Virus record (IMG/VR): IMGVR_UViG_3300042397_003635
Origin: a virus
Lineage: Duplodnaviria; Caudoviricetes
Direction: 5' to 3' (one strand)
DNA: 64,000 nt
Position 1 is the first letter of the stretch; every line of letters starts with the position of its first letter. Positions 23,939-57,342 of this stretch are shown one piece after another. Made by a program: the position numbers and the translations under genes. The notes under the pieces are model-generated. The model was not told where the DNA came from. It saw only the letters and a list, made by a program, of their open reading frames with translations, and searched no databases.

Positions 23939-25930
23939 TTATCTAGATCGGTCCTCTATACTTGACTCTTTTAGTCCATTGCCGTCTTCTGAGATAGTAA
24001 TATTGACATGGCCGTTATCTTTTAGCTTAGCATCAATCCAAAGTTCAGCTAGAAGGTCCTCAACGTGATTTTGGACCATTCGTTTAATTGGACGTGCTCC
24101 ATATTTCTCATCATAGCCGTGTTCAATAATAAAATCTTTAGCAAGTTGATCTAATTCAAAGGTGTAACCATTTTCTAGTGATCGTGCAAGCAAATCTTTA
24201 AGTTCAATTTCTAAAATTTGACCTATTTCGGCTTTTTCTAGTGAATCAAAGATAATAATATCATCTACTCGATTCAAGAACTCAGGTTGGAACTTATTTT
24301 TAAGGGCTTTATCTAAAATGCTCTTAGCCAGGGCCTTTTCCTTTTCAATATTGTTGGCAGTTGCAAATCCAATACCAACTCCGCGATCCTGCATGTCTTT
24401 TACTCCAACATTTGAAGTCATAATAACAACAGTATTTCTAAAATTGATTTTTCGGCCTCTTCCATCAACTGCATAACCCTCATCTAAGATTTGGAGCAAA
24501 TTATTAAAGATATCTGGATGGGCCTTTTCAATTTCGTCTAATAAAACTACTGAATATGGTTTTCTACGAACTTTTTCAGTTAATTGACCGCCTTCTTCGT
24601 ATCCCACATAGCCTGGAGGCGCTCCCATCATTTTAGAAGCTGTAAATTTTTCTCCATATTCATTCATATCAACTCTGATAATATTTTCTTCAGAATCAAA
24701 CATTTCTTTTGCTAAGGCTTTAGCCAATTCAGTTTTTCCAACTCCAGTTGGACCTAAAAACATAAAAGTTCCAATTGGTTTTTTACGAGAAGCAATATTT
24801 GCACGACTTCTCTTAATAGCTCTAGATAATTTTTTAATTGCCTCAGCTTGACCAATAACGCGCTTACTTAAATCTGATTCTAACGCTGCAATTTTTTCAA
24901 GATCGGTTTGCGTTAGCTTTGCTACTGGAATTCCAGTTATTTCGGCAACTACCTCAGCAATTTTGCGGTCATCTACTTCAAGTCGATTGTCTTTTAGCGT
25001 TTTTTCCCACTCAACTTTAGCTTCATCAATTTTAACTAATTGATCACGCTCAGCATCTCTTAATTTAGCAGCGGCTTCGTATTTTTGAGATTCAACTGCG
25101 CTTCTTTTATTTTTTGAAATTTCACCAAGCTCTTCTTCAAGCTCTCTAATTTTTTGAGGAACAACTATTCCATCGATATGGACATTAGCTCCAGCTTCAT
25201 CTAATAAGTCAATTGCTTTATCTGGAAAAAATCTTTCAGTTAAGTATCGATCTGCTAATTTTACACATGAGTCTAATGCAGATGCGCTATACGTAACTGA
25301 GTGGTGACTTTCGTAGTATTCTTTAATATTTTCAAGAATTTGACGAGTTTGTTCTGGGGTAGACTGTTCAACTACTACTTGTTGAAAACGTCTATTAAGT
25401 GCACCATCCTTTTCAATAGACTCTCTGTATTCATCAATTGTAGTGGCTCCAATACATTGAATTTCTCCACGAGCCAATGCCGGTTTTAGGATATTCGCAG
25501 CGTCTAGTGATCCACTAGCTGAACCTGCTCCAACCATAGTATGAATTTCATCAATGAATAGGATAATGTTTGGATTGGCACTTACTTCATTAATAATAGC
25601 CTCCATTCGCTCTTCAAACTGCCCTCTGTATTTAGTTCCAGCAACAAGGCTACTAATTTCAAGTGCAATAATTTTCTTGTCAAATAGAACCCTTGGGCAA
25701 GTTTTATCAATAATCATTTTTGCAATGCCTTCAACGATTGCAGTTTTACCAACTCCAGGTTCTCCAATTAAAATAGGATTATTCTTTTTTCGTCTAGATA
25801 AGATTTGGCTACAACGCTTAACTTCAGCAAGGCGGCCAATTACTGGATCCATTCTTCCTTCAAGCGCAAGTTGAGTAAGGTCCTTTCCGAAATTATCTAG
25901 GACTGGTGTTCGTGTGTCTCTTTTTGACAT
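23939..25930 (-). CDS. clpC: ClpC-type AAA+ unfoldase lacking the N-terminal Clp-repeat domain
   Basis: GEPGVGKT and GPTGVGKT Walker A motifs, GTKYRGQFE pore loop, UVR coil (KYEAAAKLRD), IGF loop; starts at NBD1. Confidence 0.92.
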   Translation of the reverse strand: MSKRDTRTPVLDNFGKDLTQLALEGRMDPVIGRLAEVKRCSQILSRRKKNNPILIGEPGVGKTAIVEGIAKMIIDKTCPRVLFDKKIIALEISSLVAGTKYRGQFEERMEAIINEVSANPNIILFIDEIHTMVGAGSASGSLDAANILKPALARGEIQCIGATTIDEYRESIEKDGALNRRFQQVVVEQSTPEQTRQILENIKEYYESHHSVTYSASALDSCVKLADRYLTERFFPDKAIDLLDEAGANVHIDGIVVPQKIRELEEELGEISKNKRSAVESQKYEAAAKLRDAERDQLVKIDEAKVEWEKTLKDNRLEVDDRKIAEVVAEITGIPVAKLTQTDLEKIAALESDLSKRVIGQAEAIKKLSRAIKRSRANIASRKKPIGTFMFLGPTGVGKTELAKALAKEMFDSEENIIRVDMNEYGEKFTASKMMGAPPGYVGYEEGGQLTEKVRRKPYSVVLLDEIEKAHPDIFNNLLQILDEGYAVDGRGRKINFRNTVVIMTSNVGVKDMQDRGVGIGFATANNIEKEKALAKSILDKALKNKFQPEFLNRVDDIIIFDSLEKAEIGQILEIELKDLLARSLENGYTFELDQLAKDFIIEHGYDEKYGARPIKRMVQNHVEDLLAELWIDAKLKDNGHVNITISEDGNGLKESSIEDRSR

Positions 25931-50181: not shown

Positions 50182-50469
50182 TTATTTTACTCTTAAAACT
50201 TGTTTAGATTTTTCTTCTATCCATTCAAGCTTTCTATATTTAAAATCTTTCCACTCTTCAAAATCATCTAATATATCGATAACTTCGTGTGGAACTAGCA
50301 CAAATCCGTCTGGTGCAATACCTGCAAATTTATAATAGTTTGAATCCTTTAATTTTTCTTTGACTAGTGGATTATCAAATGGCTCGTCATATAAACCAGC
50401 TTCTTGATCTAATCTCATCATTTCAGCAAGTATTTTACCTTGCTCTTCTTTAGTAAGATCCTCTGACAT
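50182..50469 (-). CDS. Hypothetical protein
   Basis: 95 aa ORF. Confidence 0.7.
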   Translation of the reverse strand: MSEDLTKEEQGKILAEMMRLDQEAGLYDEPFDNPLVKEKLKDSNYYKFAGIAPDGFVLVPHEVIDILDDFEEWKDFKYRKLEWIEEKSKQVLRVK

Positions 50470-50486
50470 TTAGTTGAGGTTATTTT

Positions 50487-50575
50487 TGGTACCGACGGCC
50501 GGAGTCGAACCGGCACGGGCATTACGGCCCAAGAGATTTTAAGTCTCTCATGTCTACCTATTTCATCACGTCGGC
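50487..50575 (-). tRNA. tRNA-Leu(UAA)
   Basis: Cloverleaf with variable arm, CT-TAA-AA, encoded CCA. Confidence 0.95.
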
Positions 50576-50656
50576 ATTTAACTAAGTTATTATACTAAGT
50601 TTATTAACTGGGTTATCAGTCGAAGATAAATATTTATAGAAATAACTCAATTATTA

Positions 50657-51568
50657 ATGGGAAATCACATTAAAAATTTTAAAGGTTGGAAGAACGTTTC
50701 AGAAGCTGGTTCTTGGGGAGAGTGGATGCAATCATTAGTTACTGGCGTAGGAGCAGAGACTCCAGAATTAGGAGCAGATGCAAAGGCTGCATTAACCGGC
50801 GTAAAGACATTAGCTGGTACTGTTGTAGATAAAATTGCAGATACACTAGGAATAGAAACTGACAAAAAGGAAGAACCAAAATCTTCTAAAGCTTTTAAAT
50901 CAAATAGCGGAAAAATTCCAGAAGAACACATTGCCGCATTAGAAGCAGCCATGGATAGACATGGAATTACAAATGAATTTGCAAGAAAGGCTATTCTTGG
51001 AGTAGTATCAAAGGAATCTCCAGATCTAAGACCTGAAGTTGACTATAGTAAAACTTCCAACTCTAGAATTAGAGAAGTATTTGGATCAAGAGTTTCAGAA
51101 TTATCAGATTCTCAACTTGATGCATTAAAAGCTAATCCAACTAAGTTTTGGGATAGAGTATATGGACCAACCGATCCAACTGGAAGAGGCTCAAAATATG
51201 GGAATTCTGAACCGGGCGATGGCGAAAGATATAGGGGTCGCGGATTTAATGGAATTACATTTAAAAGTAATTATATCAATCTTCAAAAAGTATACAATGA
51301 AATTGGTAAACTCGAAACTAATGATACAATCGATATAGTTGATAATCCAGAACAGTTGGAAGATCCAGCGATTGCAGCAGAATTTGCAATTCTTTATTAT
51401 ATCGATAGTTTTAAACGAGCAAATAAAAACCTAAATAACTTTAGTGATTTAGAATCTGCCGTAACTGATTATGTTAGATCAACTGCGGGTTGGGGTTCAG
51501 ATATTACAAGCGGAGTTAAGGCTCAGGGTTTTGCTAGAGCTCTAGACTATGCACAATCATTAGCATAA
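50657..51568 (+). CDS. GH19/lysozyme-like muralytic enzyme with internal-protein-like N-terminus
   Basis: KES catalytic Glu, YRGRGFNGITF...NY; MGNHIKNFKGW start; GATAAATA at 50625-50632. Confidence 0.75.
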   Translation: MGNHIKNFKGWKNVSEAGSWGEWMQSLVTGVGAETPELGADAKAALTGVKTLAGTVVDKIADTLGIETDKKEEPKSSKAFKSNSGKIPEEHIAALEAAMDRHGITNEFARKAILGVVSKESPDLRPEVDYSKTSNSRIREVFGSRVSELSDSQLDALKANPTKFWDRVYGPTDPTGRGSKYGNSEPGDGERYRGRGFNGITFKSNYINLQKVYNEIGKLETNDTIDIVDNPEQLEDPAIAAEFAILYYIDSFKRANKNLNNFSDLESAVTDYVRSTAGWGSDITSGVKAQGFARALDYAQSLA

Positions 51569-51569
51569 T

Positions 51570-51746
51570 ATGAAGATTAGAGATATTAAACCCCAAGATA
51601 AAGATATGGTCGACGGAATAGTCGATATTATAAAACAAGTAAGGGACAAAGATAATCGAGAAGAGATTGCAACCAATATGGTTAAGCAATTAAAGCGAGA
51701 AAAGATTATCTTAAACTACGAAGACTTTTTAAAAGCCTGTAAATAA
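51570..51746 (+). CDS. 58 aa hypothetical protein missed by track
   Basis: MKIRDIKPQDKDMVDGIVDIIKQV...LKACK, 1 nt after previous stop. Confidence 0.7.
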   Translation: MKIRDIKPQDKDMVDGIVDIIKQVRDKDNREEIATNMVKQLKREKIILNYEDFLKACK

Positions 51747-51748
51747 CA

Positions 51749-51771
51749 AAAGCCTCATTAAGCGGCTTTTT
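51749..51771. terminator. Bidirectional terminator between convergent units
   Basis: aaaagcc / ggctttt. Confidence 0.6.
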
Positions 51772-51777
51772 CTTTTT

Positions 51778-51852
<75 letters not shown>

Positions 51853-51889
51853 CTATAATATTTTCAAGATGTGATTGTTGGAAAGTAAA

Positions 51890-52745
51890 AAAGAAAAACG
51901 CTGAGATTATACGTTTTAACGTTAGATCTTTACATAGGATTATTGTTTCCCTACTTATCCAGAGACTTTTGATCTCTACTCTAACAGTGCCGGTTTTTTA
52001 GGTGTACCACTCCTTGAGCTGCGGGTTTGAACTACTCTCCTCATATTATATCTACCAGAACCTGCCGATCCCGTTAACCCTTGCGAGGCTATAGATTTTT
52101 CTGAGAACTCGTATTGGACTTGCGATCCTTTACGGCAACTGACAACCAGTTACTAGGTAGGCACCTTTCGTTCGCAGCTGACGAGCGCTTAAGCTTTGTT
52201 TTAAAATGGATTTTAGTTATTCACCAAAAGAACTTTTTATTTCCAAAGTTTATTGACTCTGTGGATTGTGAAAGTAGTGGCTCGTCACTAGGCCAGCCCC
52301 GATTTTGTCAGGGTCGATACTTAACTACTCTCTGAGATATCCCTACCTCAATTTTTCCGGATTCCTCTTAACTGCAGTCTTGGTAGACTGATGATAAGGT
52401 TAATAACAGCACCACCTGTACATCAACTTGTCTTTCGACTTTAAGGCTCCCATTAAATTGGAGTTCGCAATCATGGAGTCGGATGATTCCACTCCTTGCA
52501 AATATCCTACGAGTTAATCTTATTGAGGTTCCCCTCTCAACTAAACGACCCACATCGCCTAGTCAGCATTCCAGTTCTCCTACAGTGTTACCCTCAGATA
52601 CTTAGGACTTCTGATATCCCGCTTGCCTACTCGAGTTCCTTGCGAAACCGCAGAGCTGATAAGTCATATAGCTCCACTTTATACCTGTTTCCAGGTTTAT
52701 TTGACGATCATAGGCGACCGTTTTGCAACCTAGCAAGCTAGGCTA
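51890..52745 (-). ncRNA. Large structured ncRNA (~850 nt), GOLLD-like
   Basis: No credible ORF; many GNRA-capped hairpins and long-range helices; promoter boxes at 52785-52796; adjacent to tRNA. Confidence 0.7.
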
Positions 52746-53038
52746 CATATATCAATAAGATTCAAAGAACTTGTTTGTGTTACTTATTTATTATACCTAC
52801 TTTATTTGATTTTGGTTTAAATAAGTAAAAAAAAATTAAGGGTTTGAAAAGAGATCCGAAAAAATTTTCGCTAAAAGAGTGTTAAATGTTGATAGGTGCC
52901 ATTTTTGAATTTCTTAAATCTTGAATTTTAAATTCAGAGTCCCTGTCTTAACATCAATTGGATTGCTAGAATAAGTATGTAAATGACGTGCAGTCATATG
53001 CTACCGATTCCTCTTCACTCTTTTCTCTCCCCTATATT

Positions 53039-53467
53039 TTAAATTTTGGTTTTTGCATTGTGAGCTTCTAGCTCCTCTTGCAACATCTCGATTTGAGACT
53101 CCAATTTTTCAATCAATTGATCTTTTTCAACGATTGAGATTTGTGAAGTGTACTTCACTGGAGAATCCATTCGATATGATTGGTGCATTCCTTCTTTGCA
53201 GTCTAAACCTTTCAATTTAGAAACCAAAGATTTTAGTTCAGCTAATCTAAAGATTTTATCATAAACCTTTGCATTAGCTTTGTGAATAGCTGTTTTTAAT
53301 GCAACTAATTCATCAACCGATGTCATTGCTTTTTCCAACGCTTCCTTTGCATCATAAGGACGTGTAGTTCCTTCTTGAATAGAGTTGTACGCTGAAACAT
53401 GCGAAATGTACTCATTAGTTTTTGAAACTAATTTGTTTTTCTGTTTAAGTGCTTTTGTGATATTCAT
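53039..53467 (-). CDS. Coiled-coil protein (DIP1984/DUF6847-like)
   Basis: MNITKALKQKNKL...LKTAIHKAN...QEELEAHN pattern. Confidence 0.6.
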   Translation of the reverse strand: MNITKALKQKNKLVSKTNEYISHVSAYNSIQEGTTRPYDAKEALEKAMTSVDELVALKTAIHKANAKVYDKIFRLAELKSLVSKLKGLDCKEGMHQSYRMDSPVKYTSQISIVEKDQLIEKLESQIEMLQEELEAHNAKTKI

Positions 53468-53522
53468 GTTTTATTGTATTACTTAGTTAATAATAGTTTT
53501 TAATATACCTAAAAAATTTTTG

Positions 53523-53594
53523 AGCGGATGGAGAGAATCGAACTCTCATCTCCAGTTTGGAAGACTGGAGTAATGGCCATTATACGACATCCGC
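53523..53594 (-). tRNA. tRNA-Gly(UCC)
   Basis: Cloverleaf, CT-TCC-AA. Confidence 0.95.
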
Positions 53595-53709
53595 AAATTG
53601 CTGTCTTTCCAAGCTGTCAACCAGTGCACGTTCCAAACCCTTGTTTGGATGACTGCTTCTATTACTAGAATGCTTTATTTGCAAGTCGTCGTTGTGTTGG
53701 ATTTCTGCG

Positions 53710-53815
53710 TAGTCATAATTGGATTCGAACCAATTACAGGCTTTACCATAAAGAGTGCCATTAGCAGTTAATCTCAACCTTGGGGAGGTGCCCTTCAACC
53801 AATGAATTTATGACT
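53710..53815 (-). ncRNA. tRNA-like RNA with expanded anticodon domain
   Basis: 7 bp acceptor stem, canonical T arm (TTCGAAT), D-like arm; ~47 nt in place of an anticodon loop. Confidence 0.65.
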
Positions 53816-53820
53816 ATTTG

Positions 53821-53894
53821 CGGTCCGTACGGGACTCGAACCCGTGATCTCCTACGTGACAGGCAGGCGTCCACTCCAACTGGACCGACAGACC
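53821..53894 (-). tRNA. tRNA-Asp(GUC)
   Basis: Cloverleaf, CT-GTC-AC. Confidence 0.95.
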
Positions 53895-53997
53895 ATTTAG
53901 ATATTTCAGAAGAGGTTACTAAACTTCAGCTCTTCAAAGCTTCTCAGCTTACAGCGTTCCGTCAATTGTTTACGCTGCTAACTTATTCGGTAAAGCG

Positions 53998-54069
53998 TAG
54001 CCCGTACGAGAATCGAACTCGTCTCTCACCCGTGAAAGGGGCGTGTCCTAACCGATAGACTAACGGGCC
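53998..54069 (-). tRNA. tRNA-Glu(UUC)
   Basis: Cloverleaf, CT-TTC-AC. Confidence 0.95.
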
Positions 54070-54263
54070 AAGGACAAATCTTGCATGCTCACCATGCTTG
54101 TGGATTTGATTGAACATAGTTTACTGTTCACCTGTTTTGAGTGCACCAAAGAGCAGGGTCCATCACATAATACCTTGGGTCATGTATACTTCATTGGGTA
54201 GCTACTCCCACGAAGCCAAGGTCTCTTTCAACGGTGCTAATCCGTCTTATGTAAGATTTGTAG

Positions 54264-54337
54264 TGGAGATGACAGGAATCGAACCTGCGACCCTCTGCGT
54301 GCAAGGCAGATGCTCTAGCCAACTGAGCTACATCCCC
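54264..54337 (-). tRNA. tRNA-Ala(UGC)
   Basis: Cloverleaf, G3:U70, CT-TGC-AC. Confidence 0.95.
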
Positions 54338-54382
54338 GTTTACTGTAATTATTATACTATAAACAAGCTAATAATTGCATTG

Positions 54383-54455
54383 AGCCTCCTGTCGGAATCG
54401 AACCAACGACCTACTGATTACAAATCAGTTGCTCTACCAGCTGAGCTAAGGAGGC
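54383..54455 (-). tRNA. tRNA-Thr(UGU)
   Basis: Cloverleaf, TT-TGT-AA. Confidence 0.95.
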
Positions 54456-54574
54456 AAATAGATGAAGTATGACGTCTACTTAATTTACAGCAACCTTCTG
54501 ATAAATTAAGGGTTCTCTTCATCATTGTGGACATAGACTCATCGTCTACTCTTGGGCTTCCACTAGCCCCTTTG

Positions 54575-54645
54575 TTGTCCCGCAAGGATTCGAACCTCGA
54601 TTATCTGGACCAAAACCAGATGTGCTGCCGTTACACCACAGGACA
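54575..54645 (-). tRNA. tRNA-Gln(UUG)
   Basis: Cloverleaf, TT-TTG-GT. Confidence 0.93.
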
Positions 54646-54765: not shown

Positions 54766-55437
54766 CTATTTTCTAGGCTTTTTAGAAATTACCTCATCGA
54801 TAATTCCATATGCCTTTGCTTCTTCAGCACTAAGCCAAAAGTCTCTAGTTGCATCTGCTTTAACTTGTTCTGGATCTTTATCACAATATCCACCAAGTAA
54901 AACAAATAGCTCGTCATTTACTTTTTGCCACTCTTTCCAATCAATTTCAGCATCTTGGATATTTCCACTGAAACCTCCTGAAGATTGATGCAACATTGTA
55001 GTTGAGTGTTTTAGTGAGCTCCGCTTTCCTTTTGTGCCAGCTCCTAACAACACTGATCCCATTGATGCAGCCATTCCAGTATTAACTGTTCTGATATCAC
55101 AGTTAATATAATCCATTACATCAACCATTGATAAGCCGCTCTTAACACTTCCACCTGGACTATCAATATGCATAGTAATATCTAATCCATCAACTGAATC
55201 CAAAAACATTAGCTGAGCTTGCACAATAGTCGACATATGATCGTTGACTGGACCTGCTACCCAAATTAGTCTTTCCATCATTAATCTGGAAAAAATATCC
55301 ATTTGAGTTGCACGTAATTCGCGCTCTTCTAAAATATAAGGAGTCATTGACGACTCAATCTGCTTTTGATGGTAGTGCATATTCAATGAAGAAATGCCAT
55401 GCTTACTCATCGCGTATTTTTCAAATTCGTTTCTCAT
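54766..55437 (-). CDS. clpP: ATP-dependent Clp protease proteolytic subunit
   Basis: DIFSRL, IDSPGG, AASMG (Ser), MLHQ (His), RDFW (Asp). Confidence 0.96.
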   Translation of the reverse strand: MRNEFEKYAMSKHGISSLNMHYHQKQIESSMTPYILEERELRATQMDIFSRLMMERLIWVAGPVNDHMSTIVQAQLMFLDSVDGLDITMHIDSPGGSVKSGLSMVDVMDYINCDIRTVNTGMAASMGSVLLGAGTKGKRSSLKHSTTMLHQSSGGFSGNIQDAEIDWKEWQKVNDELFVLLGGYCDKDPEQVKADATRDFWLSAEEAKAYGIIDEVISKKPRK

Positions 55438-57081: not shown

Positions 57082-57118
57082 AAATACTTTCCAACATGTC
57101 AAAGAACCTATTCTATAA

Positions 57119-57152
57119 AAATAAAAAACCCGAACTTTTTGGGTTCGGGCTC
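57119..57152 (-). terminator. Intrinsic terminator (attenuator candidate) between leader ORF and tRNA array
   Basis: Minus strand CCCGAAC-CCAAAAA-GTTCGGG-TTTTTTATTT. Confidence 0.85.
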
Positions 57153-57186
57153 AGTGTTTCTATAGCTACTAACTTTATAATACCTA

Positions 57187-57285
57187 TCAACTCCTGAACC
57201 CTGTTGCACGATCATTGCCTGTCCACTTCGCATACGCTACTTGGCTAAAGCAATTCTCGGTAATATGGTTCATTTGTGTTTGCAT
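57187..57285 (-). CDS. 32 aa leader peptide MQTQMNHITENCFSQVAYAKWTGNDRATGFRS
   Basis: ATG at 57285 after A-rich leader, double stop TGA TAG; lies between promoter and terminator upstream of tRNA array. Confidence 0.7.
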   Translation of the reverse strand: MQTQMNHITENCFSQVAYAKWTGNDRATGFRS

Positions 57286-57306
57286 CACTTTTGTTATTTG
57301 TATAGT

Positions 57307-57342
57307 TATTTATATTAGCTAATATACAAAAAGTTTTTGACA
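57307..57342 (-). promoter_or_regulatory. Tandem promoters of tRNA leader: TGTCAAA-N9-TATATTAG and late-type TATAAATA
   Basis: Boxes at 57336-57342, 57319-57326 and 57307-57314. Confidence 0.6.

What the first reader, a model, noticed from the sequence alone, without database searches (positions are those of the whole stretch)
51890..52745. ~850 nt highly structured ncRNA (GOLLD-like) co-transcribed into tRNA-fMet
Seen: no credible ORF. GNRA hairpins include ACCTG-GAAA-CAGGT (52683-52696), GTC-GAAA-GAC (52430-52439), GATC-GCAA-GTC and CTC-GCAA-GGG. Long-range helices include TCGCCTA (52711-52717) with TAGGCGA (52555-52561) and AGTAGT with ACTACT (52322-52327 / 52274-52279). GAGAGTAGTT occurs twice. 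Overlapping GTATAAT and AATAAATA boxes lie upstream and no terminator precedes tRNA-fMet. Established: GOLLD and ROOL are large phage RNAs often next to tRNAs, reported to form RNA-only multimeric cages, with unknown function. Inference: a GOLLD family member or a new large RNA.
Basis: partly seen in the sequence, partly recalled or inferred. Interest (0 to 1): 0.75.

Follow-up and report, generated by a model that had tools for sequence, protein, structure and literature searches.

The report
GOLLD giant RNA in lake phage
This gene-free stretch of a large lake phage encodes a full-length member of the known GOLLD family of giant folded RNAs (published members self-assemble into RNA-only cages), sitting just upstream of the phage's initiator-type tRNA, so it is a real but familiar element.

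Summary
Window 51898-52332 (minus strand) matches Rfam GOLLD (RF02032) over the whole model at 242.6 bits (threshold 150). That model covers only the 3' half. The upstream ~390 nt (to ~52719, plus a 5' hairpin to 52747) is a 5' domain shared with 48 full-length homologues in IMG/VR viral contigs and with two huge uncultured phages. In a 29-sequence alignment, 190 predicted pairs are 97% canonical and 135 show compensatory changes, far above controls. All four GNRA hairpins and the AGUAGU/ACUACU helix are real. The proposed UCGCCUA/UAGGCGA helix is not: each arm pairs elsewhere. No ORF is conserved. Contigs from four metatranscriptome studies cover only 51901-52775, none of the flanking genes. 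A boxA-like GUUCUUUGA lies 43 nt upstream of the conserved core, and about 26 of 27 homologues keep such a motif. No strong terminator precedes the initiator-like tRNA-Met 45 nt downstream; one follows it. Best reading: a promoter-boxA-GOLLD-tRNAfMet-terminator unit whose RNA probably forms a GOLLD-type cage of unknown function. This scan had already found GOLLD with boxA leaders in other lake-phage genomes. It is a new member of a known family; interest is modest.

The parts
52790..52795 (-). TATAAT word, a candidate -10 element; a start would fall near 52783.
   Evidence: Read from the sequence. The promoter scan did not list it for want of a -35. One RNA contig reaches 52775. No Bacteroidota-type TAnnTTTG lies on this strand between 52745 and 53040. 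Function is inferred.
52761..52770 (-). boxA-like leader word GUUCUUUGAA
   Evidence: One of only two minus-strand copies in the window; the other heads the tRNA array at 57099-57107. GTTCTTT[GA]A lies within 130 nt upstream of the core in about 26 of 27 non-redundant homologues, against a 1.9% chance expectation. It resembles the published rrn boxA consensus of E. coli (UGCUCUUUAACA) and B. subtilis (AUGAUCUUUGAAA) in PMC13753749. Binding of Nus factors is not shown.
52724..52747 (-). 5' hairpin GUAGCCUAG-CUUG-CUAGGUUGC ahead of the conserved core
   Evidence: Fold. Most homologues carry a small tetraloop hairpin (UUCG, GCAA, GAAA or GUAA loops) at the same place with unrelated stem sequence.
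52334..52719 (-). GOLLD 5' domain of a clade-specific type, including the invariant GAAA hairpins at 52683-52696 and 52430-52439 and the helix 52710-52715 with 52625-52630
   Evidence: Conserved in 48 full-length homologues. It has 106 predicted pairs, 96.9% canonical, 78 with compensatory changes against 25-31 in slid controls. Rfam does not cover it. An HMM of it finds nothing in the phiCbK, PegLeg or PG07 loci.
51898..52332 (-). GOLLD 3' domain, a match to the whole Rfam RF02032 model
   Evidence: 242.6 bits against a gathering score of 150, model positions 1-416 of 416. It has 81 pairs, 97.9% canonical, 57 compensatory.
52187..52269 (-). Variable A/U-rich linker inside the 3' domain (83 nt here, 54-74 nt in homologues); it holds no tRNA
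   Evidence: Unalignable among homologues. It corresponds to the disordered linker that faces the cage interior in the solved GOLLD (PMC12286853).
52078..52088 (-). Hairpin CCUC-GCAA-GGG, which I map by its position in the Rfam structure to loop L21a of the solved GOLLD
   Evidence: The loop dinucleotide is GC in 18 homologues and CG in 11, both self-complementary. The published structure reports the same GC/CG switch for the symmetric kissing bridge B8.
51853..51897 (-). 45-nt U-rich spacer between GOLLD and the tRNA. It contains UACUUUCCAACA (51876-51887), complementary to the tRNA-array leader at 57085-57096.
   Evidence: In the nearest relative, G001, the spacer copy has one uncompensated change, so that comparison does not support the leader-trailer helix.
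51778..51852 (-). tRNA-Met (CAU) with initiator hallmarks
   Evidence: ARAGORN and Rfam. Read by hand: GGG/CCC at the foot of the anticodon stem, a U1-U72 mismatch and A11:U24.
51740..51770 (-). Terminator-like hairpin AAAAGCC...GGCUUUU followed by UGUUAUUU, shared with the convergent plus-strand ORF 51570-51746
   Evidence: Folds at -8.9 kcal/mol, z -1.27. It is below the scan's stem criteria. Function is inferred.

Best explanation
The stretch encodes a full-length GOLLD RNA of about 820-885 nt on the minus strand. Shown here: the 3' domain is a full Rfam GOLLD match. The 5' domain is a conserved, heavily covarying fold shared by a large clade of lake and other environmental phage contigs. 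The two domains are always contiguous. Near-identical RNA-library contigs span both domains. Inferred: transcription starts a little upstream of 52775, perhaps at the TATAAT word. It then passes a boxA-like word that may recruit host NusB/S10-type antitermination factors, as at rRNA operons. It runs through GOLLD and the initiator-type tRNA-Met to a terminator at about 51740-51770. RNase P cleavage at the tRNA 5' end, followed by trimming, would leave the GOLLD 3' end near 51898. By homology to the solved GOLLD env-38 (a D7 14-mer cage), the RNA probably self-assembles into an RNA-only cage. The self-complementary loops at 52078-52088 and the neighbouring hairpin would serve as inter-chain kissing contacts, and the variable linker would face inward. 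What the cage does is unknown. My best guess, at about 20%, is a role in the phage's takeover of translation, holding or organising tRNAs or ribosomes. This rests on its constant tRNA context, on its recurrent pairing with an initiator-type tRNA, and on a report that ribosomes bind GOLLD in pull-downs (cited in PMC12286853).
For: Rfam match. The same two-domain RNA occurs in LR756502 and LR745206, whose 3' domains score 275 and 287 bits. There are 48 full-length homologues. Covariation: 190 pairs, 135 compensatory, 97% canonical against about 40% in slid controls and about 76% in shuffles. The loop I map to L21a switches between GC and CG, as published for L21a. No ORF is conserved. RNA-library contigs from four studies, 99% or more identical, lie within 51901-52775. 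One 815-nt contig is GOLLD only, and none covers the flanking protein genes. The boxA-like word is enriched upstream of homologues, often after a TAnnTTTG promoter and a small hairpin. Strong terminators follow GOLLD where no tRNA does. A tRNA abuts the 3' end within 0-33 nt in five of the 29 aligned loci, the window included. The cage structure, linker and lysis-time expression come from PMC12286853.
Against: No raw-read data define the ends or the strand. Contigs cannot show starts, and DNA carry-over in RNA libraries is not formally excluded. The TATAAT word lacks a -35 and does not fit the Bacteroidota promoter type seen in homologues, so read-through from the upstream tRNA array remains possible. 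I could not compare this clade's 5' domain with that of the solved env-38 RNA, and the 5' domain forms the cage cap, so 14-mer assembly is an extrapolation. boxA function is untested, and the word is absent upstream of GOLLD in three cultured phages of other hosts. No functional data exist for any GOLLD.
Confidence: 0.93

Rival explanations
1. The RNA has no promoter of its own. It is the distal part of one long transcript that starts at the head of the tRNA array near 57100-57300 and is bracketed by a leader-trailer helix, like an rRNA operon.
For: All 24 tRNAs and GOLLD lie on the same strand. The 12-mer after the head boxA (57085-57096) is exactly complementary to 51876-51887, just 3' of GOLLD, a match unlikely by chance. 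No canonical host promoter lies upstream of GOLLD.
Against: Most homologues have their own promoter-hairpin-boxA leader and their own terminator around GOLLD. A second boxA-like word sits directly before GOLLD. In the nearest relative the trailer 12-mer carries an uncompensated change. No RNA contig covers 52797-53000, which is a weak point.
Confidence: 0.2
2. The 5' half (52334-52747) and the Rfam-matching 3' half are two separate RNAs that merely lie side by side.
For: Rfam models only the 3' half. The solved structure shows the two halves as separate 3D domains. The 5' domain type differs between GOLLD clades.
Against: The halves are contiguous with fixed spacing in all 48 homologues. Single RNA-library contigs span both, 51901-52713 and 51948-52733. 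Published GOLLD RNAs are single ~800-nt molecules.
Confidence: 0.04
3. It is a different kind of large RNA (group I or II intron remnant, RNase P, tmRNA, OLE, ROOL) or a degenerate protein gene.
For: None was found beyond its size and rich structure.
Against: A permissive Rfam scan of 51600-53100 at E up to 1 returns only GOLLD and the tRNA. ORFs are short and not conserved. Substitutions follow base pairs, not codons.
Confidence: 0.01

Closest known systems
GOLLD RNA (Rfam RF02032; the solved env-38 structure, a D7 14-mer cage, PMC12286853)
   Same: Full match to the family model. Length about 820-885 nt, against 833 nt for env-38. Two-domain layout with an internal variable linker. Phage origin, tRNA neighbourhood and a Met-tRNA next door. 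Self-complementary GC/CG dinucleotide in the loop I map to L21a.
   Different: The 5' domain could not be compared with env-38 and is not shared with the cultured-phage GOLLDs tested. Here the tRNA-Met lies downstream of GOLLD, whereas env-38 is described as lying downstream of a Met-tRNA. A boxA-like leader is present. Assembly into a cage is not shown for this RNA.
GOLLD RNAs of the huge uncultured phages LR756502 and LR745206
   Same: Both domains are alignable over the full length (about 67-70% identity in the 5' half). A tRNA lies directly beside each, on the same strand.
   Different: Those genomes are 634-642 kb. They carry an inserted hairpin in the 5' domain and shorter linkers (61 nt against 83 nt here). 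LR756502 lacks the boxA-like word.
ROOL RNA
   Same: A large ornate phage or prophage RNA near tRNA islands that forms an RNA-only cage of unknown function.
   Different: Unrelated sequence and fold; no Rfam ROOL match here. ROOL forms an 8-mer, not a 14-mer.
Bacterial rrn operon leaders (boxB hairpin, boxA, Nus antitermination)
   Same: A promoter, then in many homologues a small hairpin, then a GUUCUUUGA(A) word close to the published boxA consensus, ahead of a long structured untranslated RNA and a tRNA.
   Different: The cargo is a phage RNA, not rRNA. NusB/S10 binding is untested. The window itself has no hairpin between the TATAAT word and the boxA-like word.

Membership tests
GOLLD RNA (RF02032) | Score at or above the curated gathering threshold of the family covariance model, over the whole model | tested here: met
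   242.6 bits against 150, model positions 1-416 of 416, E 1e-67.
GOLLD RNA (RF02032) | Conserved 3'-domain secondary structure kept by compensatory changes | tested here: met
   81 pairs, 97.9% canonical, 57 with changes on both sides, against 15-29 in slid controls.
GOLLD RNA (RF02032) | A structured but less conserved 5' domain contiguous with the 3' domain, giving about 800 nt in total | tested here: met
   106 covarying pairs in 52334-52719. Totals are 789-844 nt across 29 sequences. The two halves are contiguous in all 48 homologues.
GOLLD RNA (RF02032) | Variable, unstructured linker inside the 3' domain | tested here: met
   83 nt here (52187-52269) and 54-74 nt in homologues, unalignable.
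GOLLD RNA (RF02032) | Phage or prophage location next to tRNA genes | tested here: met
   T4-type portal, UvsW-like helicase and 24 tRNAs in the window. The nearest record is an IMG/VR viral contig. 18 of 29 loci have a same-strand tRNA within 3 kb.
GOLLD RNA (RF02032) | Self-complementary dinucleotide (GC or CG) in loop L21a, the published symmetric kissing bridge B8 | tested here: met
   GCAA here. The dinucleotide is GC in 18 homologues and CG in 11. The mapping to L21a rests on the loop's position in the Rfam structure, not on the env-38 sequence.
GOLLD RNA (RF02032) | 5' domain homologous to that of the solved env-38 RNA (P1-P12, the cage cap) | not testable with these tools
   The published alignment held here covers only the 3' domain, and I could not find the env-38 sequence in the text held.
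GOLLD RNA (RF02032) | Assembly into a homo-14-mer RNA cage | not testable with these tools
   Needs mass photometry or cryo-EM of the transcript.
rrn-type boxA antitermination leader | A boxA word close to the host consensus in the 5' leader of a long untranslated transcript | tested here: met
   GUUCUUUGAA at 52761-52770. Enriched upstream of homologues. The consensus comes from PMC13753749.
rrn-type boxA antitermination leader | The same word stands before the host's own rRNA genes | not tested
rrn-type boxA antitermination leader | NusB/S10 binding and read-through of terminators | not testable with these tools
   Needs binding and reporter assays.
Bacterial initiator tRNA | CAU anticodon, three G-C pairs at the foot of the anticodon stem, an unpaired 1:72 position, A11:U24 | tested here: met
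   Read by hand. The 1:72 mismatch is U-U, not the usual C-A.

The most novel reading that the evidence does not exclude
In this phage clade GOLLD and an initiator-type tRNA-Met form a conserved two-gene module. It is the nearest tRNA in 9 of 29 non-redundant loci and the only tRNA within 3 kb in 7 of them, and it lies sometimes upstream and sometimes downstream. This would mean the GOLLD cage acts on translation initiation, for example by holding, delivering or protecting initiator tRNA or by docking on ribosomes, and that its synthesis borrows the host's rRNA antitermination machinery through boxA.
Probability: 0.12. Interest if true: 0.8.

Novelty: new member of a known kind. Interest (0 to 1): 0.33.

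Why it matters
GOLLD is among the largest bacterial or phage non-coding RNAs, and its function is unknown even though its cage structure is solved. This locus does not change what GOLLD is. It does provide a well-bounded, apparently expressed example from a widespread lake phage. It also provides a 29-sequence covarying alignment of a 5' domain that Rfam does not model. Two contextual regularities could guide function tests: an rRNA-like boxA leader, and a recurrent initiator-tRNA partner.

Tried and rejected
UCGCCUA/UAGGCGA was rejected on comparative grounds.
- **Other RNA families:** a permissive Rfam scan for introns, RNase P, tmRNA, OLE and ROOL found nothing.
- **Comparison with env-38's 5' domain:** the supplementary GOLLD alignment covers only the 3' domain, and motif searches in the supplements found nothing useful.
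- **boxA beyond this clade:** no such word lies within 900 nt upstream of GOLLD in phiCbK, PegLeg or PG07, and the 5'-domain HMM finds nothing there.
- **Cellular genomes:** the 5' motif hit only three MAG contigs, two of them under 1 kb, from unrelated taxa that look mis-binned, so this gave no host.
- **Literature:** searches for GOLLD with boxA, antitermination or NusB found no relevant paper in the held library. Searches for the boxA word itself returned only primers and siRNAs.
- **T4-type late promoter:** TATAAATA is not enriched in the window, 4 matches against 9 expected.
- **Bacteroidota promoter:** TAnnTTTG is absent upstream of this GOLLD.
- **Leader-trailer helix 57085-57096 with 51876-51887:** it is exact here but broken by one uncompensated change in G001.
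- **Uncovered parts in RNA contigs:** 50400-51668 and 52797-52937 have no cover in any of the four runs, and further upstream only one small contig (53037-53209, one run) and tRNA-sized pieces map.
- **The window's own assembly** is not held.

Full report
**Observation**

I read 51500-53300.
- The four GNRA hairpins are at 52683-52696, 52430-52439, 52116-52128 and 52078-52088.
- GAGAGUAGUU occurs twice.
- The two complementary word pairs are present.
- GTATAAT is at 52790-52796.
- A tRNA-Met (CAU) lies at 51778-51852.

The ORF list shows nothing above 81 aa on either strand.

**Identity**

A gathering-threshold Rfam scan of the whole window gives GOLLD (RF02032) at 51898-52332 on the minus strand. 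The score is 242.6 bits against a threshold of 150, covering model positions 1-416 of 416. A permissive scan of 51600-53100 at E up to 1 adds only the tRNA. This rules out intron, RNase P, tmRNA, OLE and ROOL readings.

The Rfam model covers only the conserved 3' half of GOLLD. The published description says the 5' region is less conserved, and the solved env-38 RNA is 833 nt, with residues 1-420 as the 5' domain (PMC12286853).

**The 5' half**

blastn of the region against phage records hit two huge uncultured phages, LR756502 and LR745206, exactly in the part upstream of the Rfam match. Both carry a full Rfam GOLLD 3' domain directly downstream of it, at 275 and 287 bits. The near-identical IMG/VR record G001 also carries the element.

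A 28-nt conserved pattern from the 5' half found 44 IMG/VR contigs. An nhmmer profile found 48 full-length homologues of about 800-865 nt, of which 27 are non-redundant at 97% identity.

In the 29-sequence alignment A2, RNAalifold predicts 190 pairs, 135 of them with compensatory changes. My own controls gave these figures:

| Domain | Pairs | Canonical | Pairs with compensatory changes | Same count, partners slid 1-3 columns |
|---|---|---|---|---|
| 5' | 106 | 96.9% | 78 | 25-31 |
| 3' | 81 | 97.9% | 57 | 15-29 |

With slid partners, canonical pairing is 36-49% across the two domains. With shuffled partners it is at most 78%. ORFs in the homologues differ in strand, position and length. This is one non-coding, two-domain RNA.

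The AGUAGU/ACUACU helix is the first helix of the Rfam model and covaries. The UCGCCUA/UAGGCGA helix is not supported: only 55% of cells pair and nothing covaries. The first arm pairs with 52625-52630 (100% paired, two covarying positions). The second arm forms a local hairpin (98% paired).

**Features tied to the published cage**

By its position in the Rfam structure, the hairpin CCUC-GCAA-GGG (52078-52088) corresponds to L21a. Among homologues its loop dinucleotide is GC in 18 and CG in 11, both self-complementary. This is the switch reported for the symmetric inter-chain kissing bridge B8. The neighbouring hairpin changes in step.

The internal linker is 83 nt here and 54-74 nt elsewhere, unalignable and without a tRNA. 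It matches the disordered linker that faces the cage interior.

I could not compare the 5' domain with env-38. The supplementary alignment holds only 3' domains, and motif searches found nothing. An HMM of this clade's 5' domain finds nothing in the phiCbK, PegLeg or PG07 loci. The 3' HMM still detects PegLeg and PG07, but not phiCbK. Cage assembly by this RNA is therefore an extrapolation. I put it near 70%.

**Expression**

A word index finds the stretch in 14 lake or freshwater DNA runs and in six RNA-library runs from six studies. I laid four RNA runs from four studies on 50400-54600. Their near-identical contigs lie within 51901-52775:
- An 815-nt contig is GOLLD only, covering 51901-52713.
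- A 786-nt contig covers 51948-52733.
- One contig reaches 52775.

The flanking protein genes are essentially uncovered; the one exception is a small contig at 53037-53209 in a single run. Contigs cannot give ends or strand, and uncovered parts count for little. Even so, single contigs bridge both domains, and their ends from different studies fall near the predicted ends. This is moderate support for a discrete, abundant RNA.

**Transcription unit (inferred)**

- **Upstream:** a TATAAT word (52790-52795) lies upstream, without a good -35 and without the Bacteroidota TAnnTTTG motif.
- **boxA-like word:** GUUCUUUGAA sits at 52761-52770. The only other minus-strand copy in the window heads the tRNA array.
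- **Homologues:** GTTCTTT[GA]A lies within 130 nt upstream of the core in about 26 of 27 non-redundant loci, against a 1.9% chance expectation. It often follows a TAnnTTTG promoter and a small hairpin.
- **Consensus:** the word is close to the published rrn boxA consensus of E. coli and B. subtilis, and the B. subtilis form binds NusB (PMC13753749).
- **Prior work:** I found no paper linking GOLLD with boxA. Earlier reports of this scan describe the same leader at other lake-phage GOLLD loci, so it is not new to the scan.
- **Downstream:** the last GOLLD hairpin and its U-run are weak, at -3.9 kcal/mol. Homologues without a downstream tRNA add a strong terminator within about 10-40 nt. Here the next terminator-like hairpin follows the tRNA, at 51740-51770 (-8.9 kcal/mol).
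- **tRNA abutment:** a tRNA abuts the GOLLD 3' end within 0-33 nt in five of the 29 aligned loci, the window included, so RNase P would set that end.

**The tRNA partner**

The tRNA has GGG/CCC in the anticodon stem, a U1-U72 mismatch and A11:U24, which are initiator hallmarks. An initiator-like tRNA-Met is the nearest tRNA in 9 of 29 loci and the only tRNA within 3 kb in 7. It lies upstream or downstream at varying distances. The solved env-38 GOLLD is also described as lying next to a Met-tRNA. The loci are related, so this is a lead and not a statistic.

**Context**

The window carries a T4-type portal, a UvsW-like helicase, an RNA ligase domain, ClpP and a ClpB/C-like ATPase, plus 24 same-strand tRNAs. 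G001 is a 114-kb fragment estimated to be 44% complete, so the phage is large. The DNA runs that hold the stretch are lake and freshwater metagenomes. The 5' motif is nearly absent from 185,579 species-representative genomes, with three small, odd MAG contigs as the only hits. This fits a lytic phage lineage.

**Verdict**

This is a genuine, full-length and probably expressed GOLLD RNA, a new member of a known family. Function remains unknown. The boxA leader and the initiator-tRNA pairing are the most useful leads.

Noticed in passing
window 54105-54167 (-): Rfam freshwater-1 RNA (RF02979) at 72.4 bits, just over its threshold of 72, between tRNA-Ala and tRNA-Glu inside the tRNA array.
   Followed up: no
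window 57085-57107 (-) and 51876-51887: The head of the tRNA array carries GUUCUUUGA and then UGUUGGAAAGUA. That 12-mer is exactly complementary to the spacer just 3' of GOLLD, suggesting an rRNA-like leader-trailer helix across 5.2 kb. In the nearest relative, G001, the trailer copy has one uncompensated change.
   Followed up: partly
window 51778-51852; loci L002, L034, L080, L077, L032, L043, L067, L160: An initiator-like tRNA-Met (CAU) is the nearest tRNA to GOLLD in 9 of 29 non-redundant loci and the sole tRNA within 3 kb in 7. It lies upstream (55-446 nt) or downstream (3-33 nt).
   Followed up: partly
PMC12286853 supplementary file 5 (ROOL alignment): Several ROOL rows begin with UUCUUUGA or CUUUGAAA words, hinting that a boxA-like leader may also precede ROOL RNAs.
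   Followed up: no
window 57307-57314 (-) and 50631-50638 (-): TATAAATA, the T4 late-promoter word, stands upstream of the tRNA-array leader and 56 nt upstream of tRNA-Leu (UAA). The close relative L124 has it 3 nt before its boxA-like word. The word is not enriched in the window (4 against 9 expected).
   Followed up: partly
window 54766-55437 (-) and 23939-25930 (-): A ClpP protease gene sits inside the tRNA array. A ClpB/C-like double AAA+ ATPase has homologues of 56-57% identity in LR745206 and LR756502, lying a few kb from their GOLLD genes.
   Followed up: no
L001 2443-2515 (-) and L134, about 6 nt after GOLLD: The tRNA that directly abuts GOLLD in these two loci is called 'tRNA-???' by ARAGORN because of an odd anticodon loop. 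Rfam scores the L001 copy as a tRNA at 52.8 bits.
   Followed up: no
window 53039-53467 (-): The 142-aa ORF between the tRNA array and GOLLD matches DUF6847 weakly (26.2 bits, just under the 27-bit cut-off).
   Followed up: no
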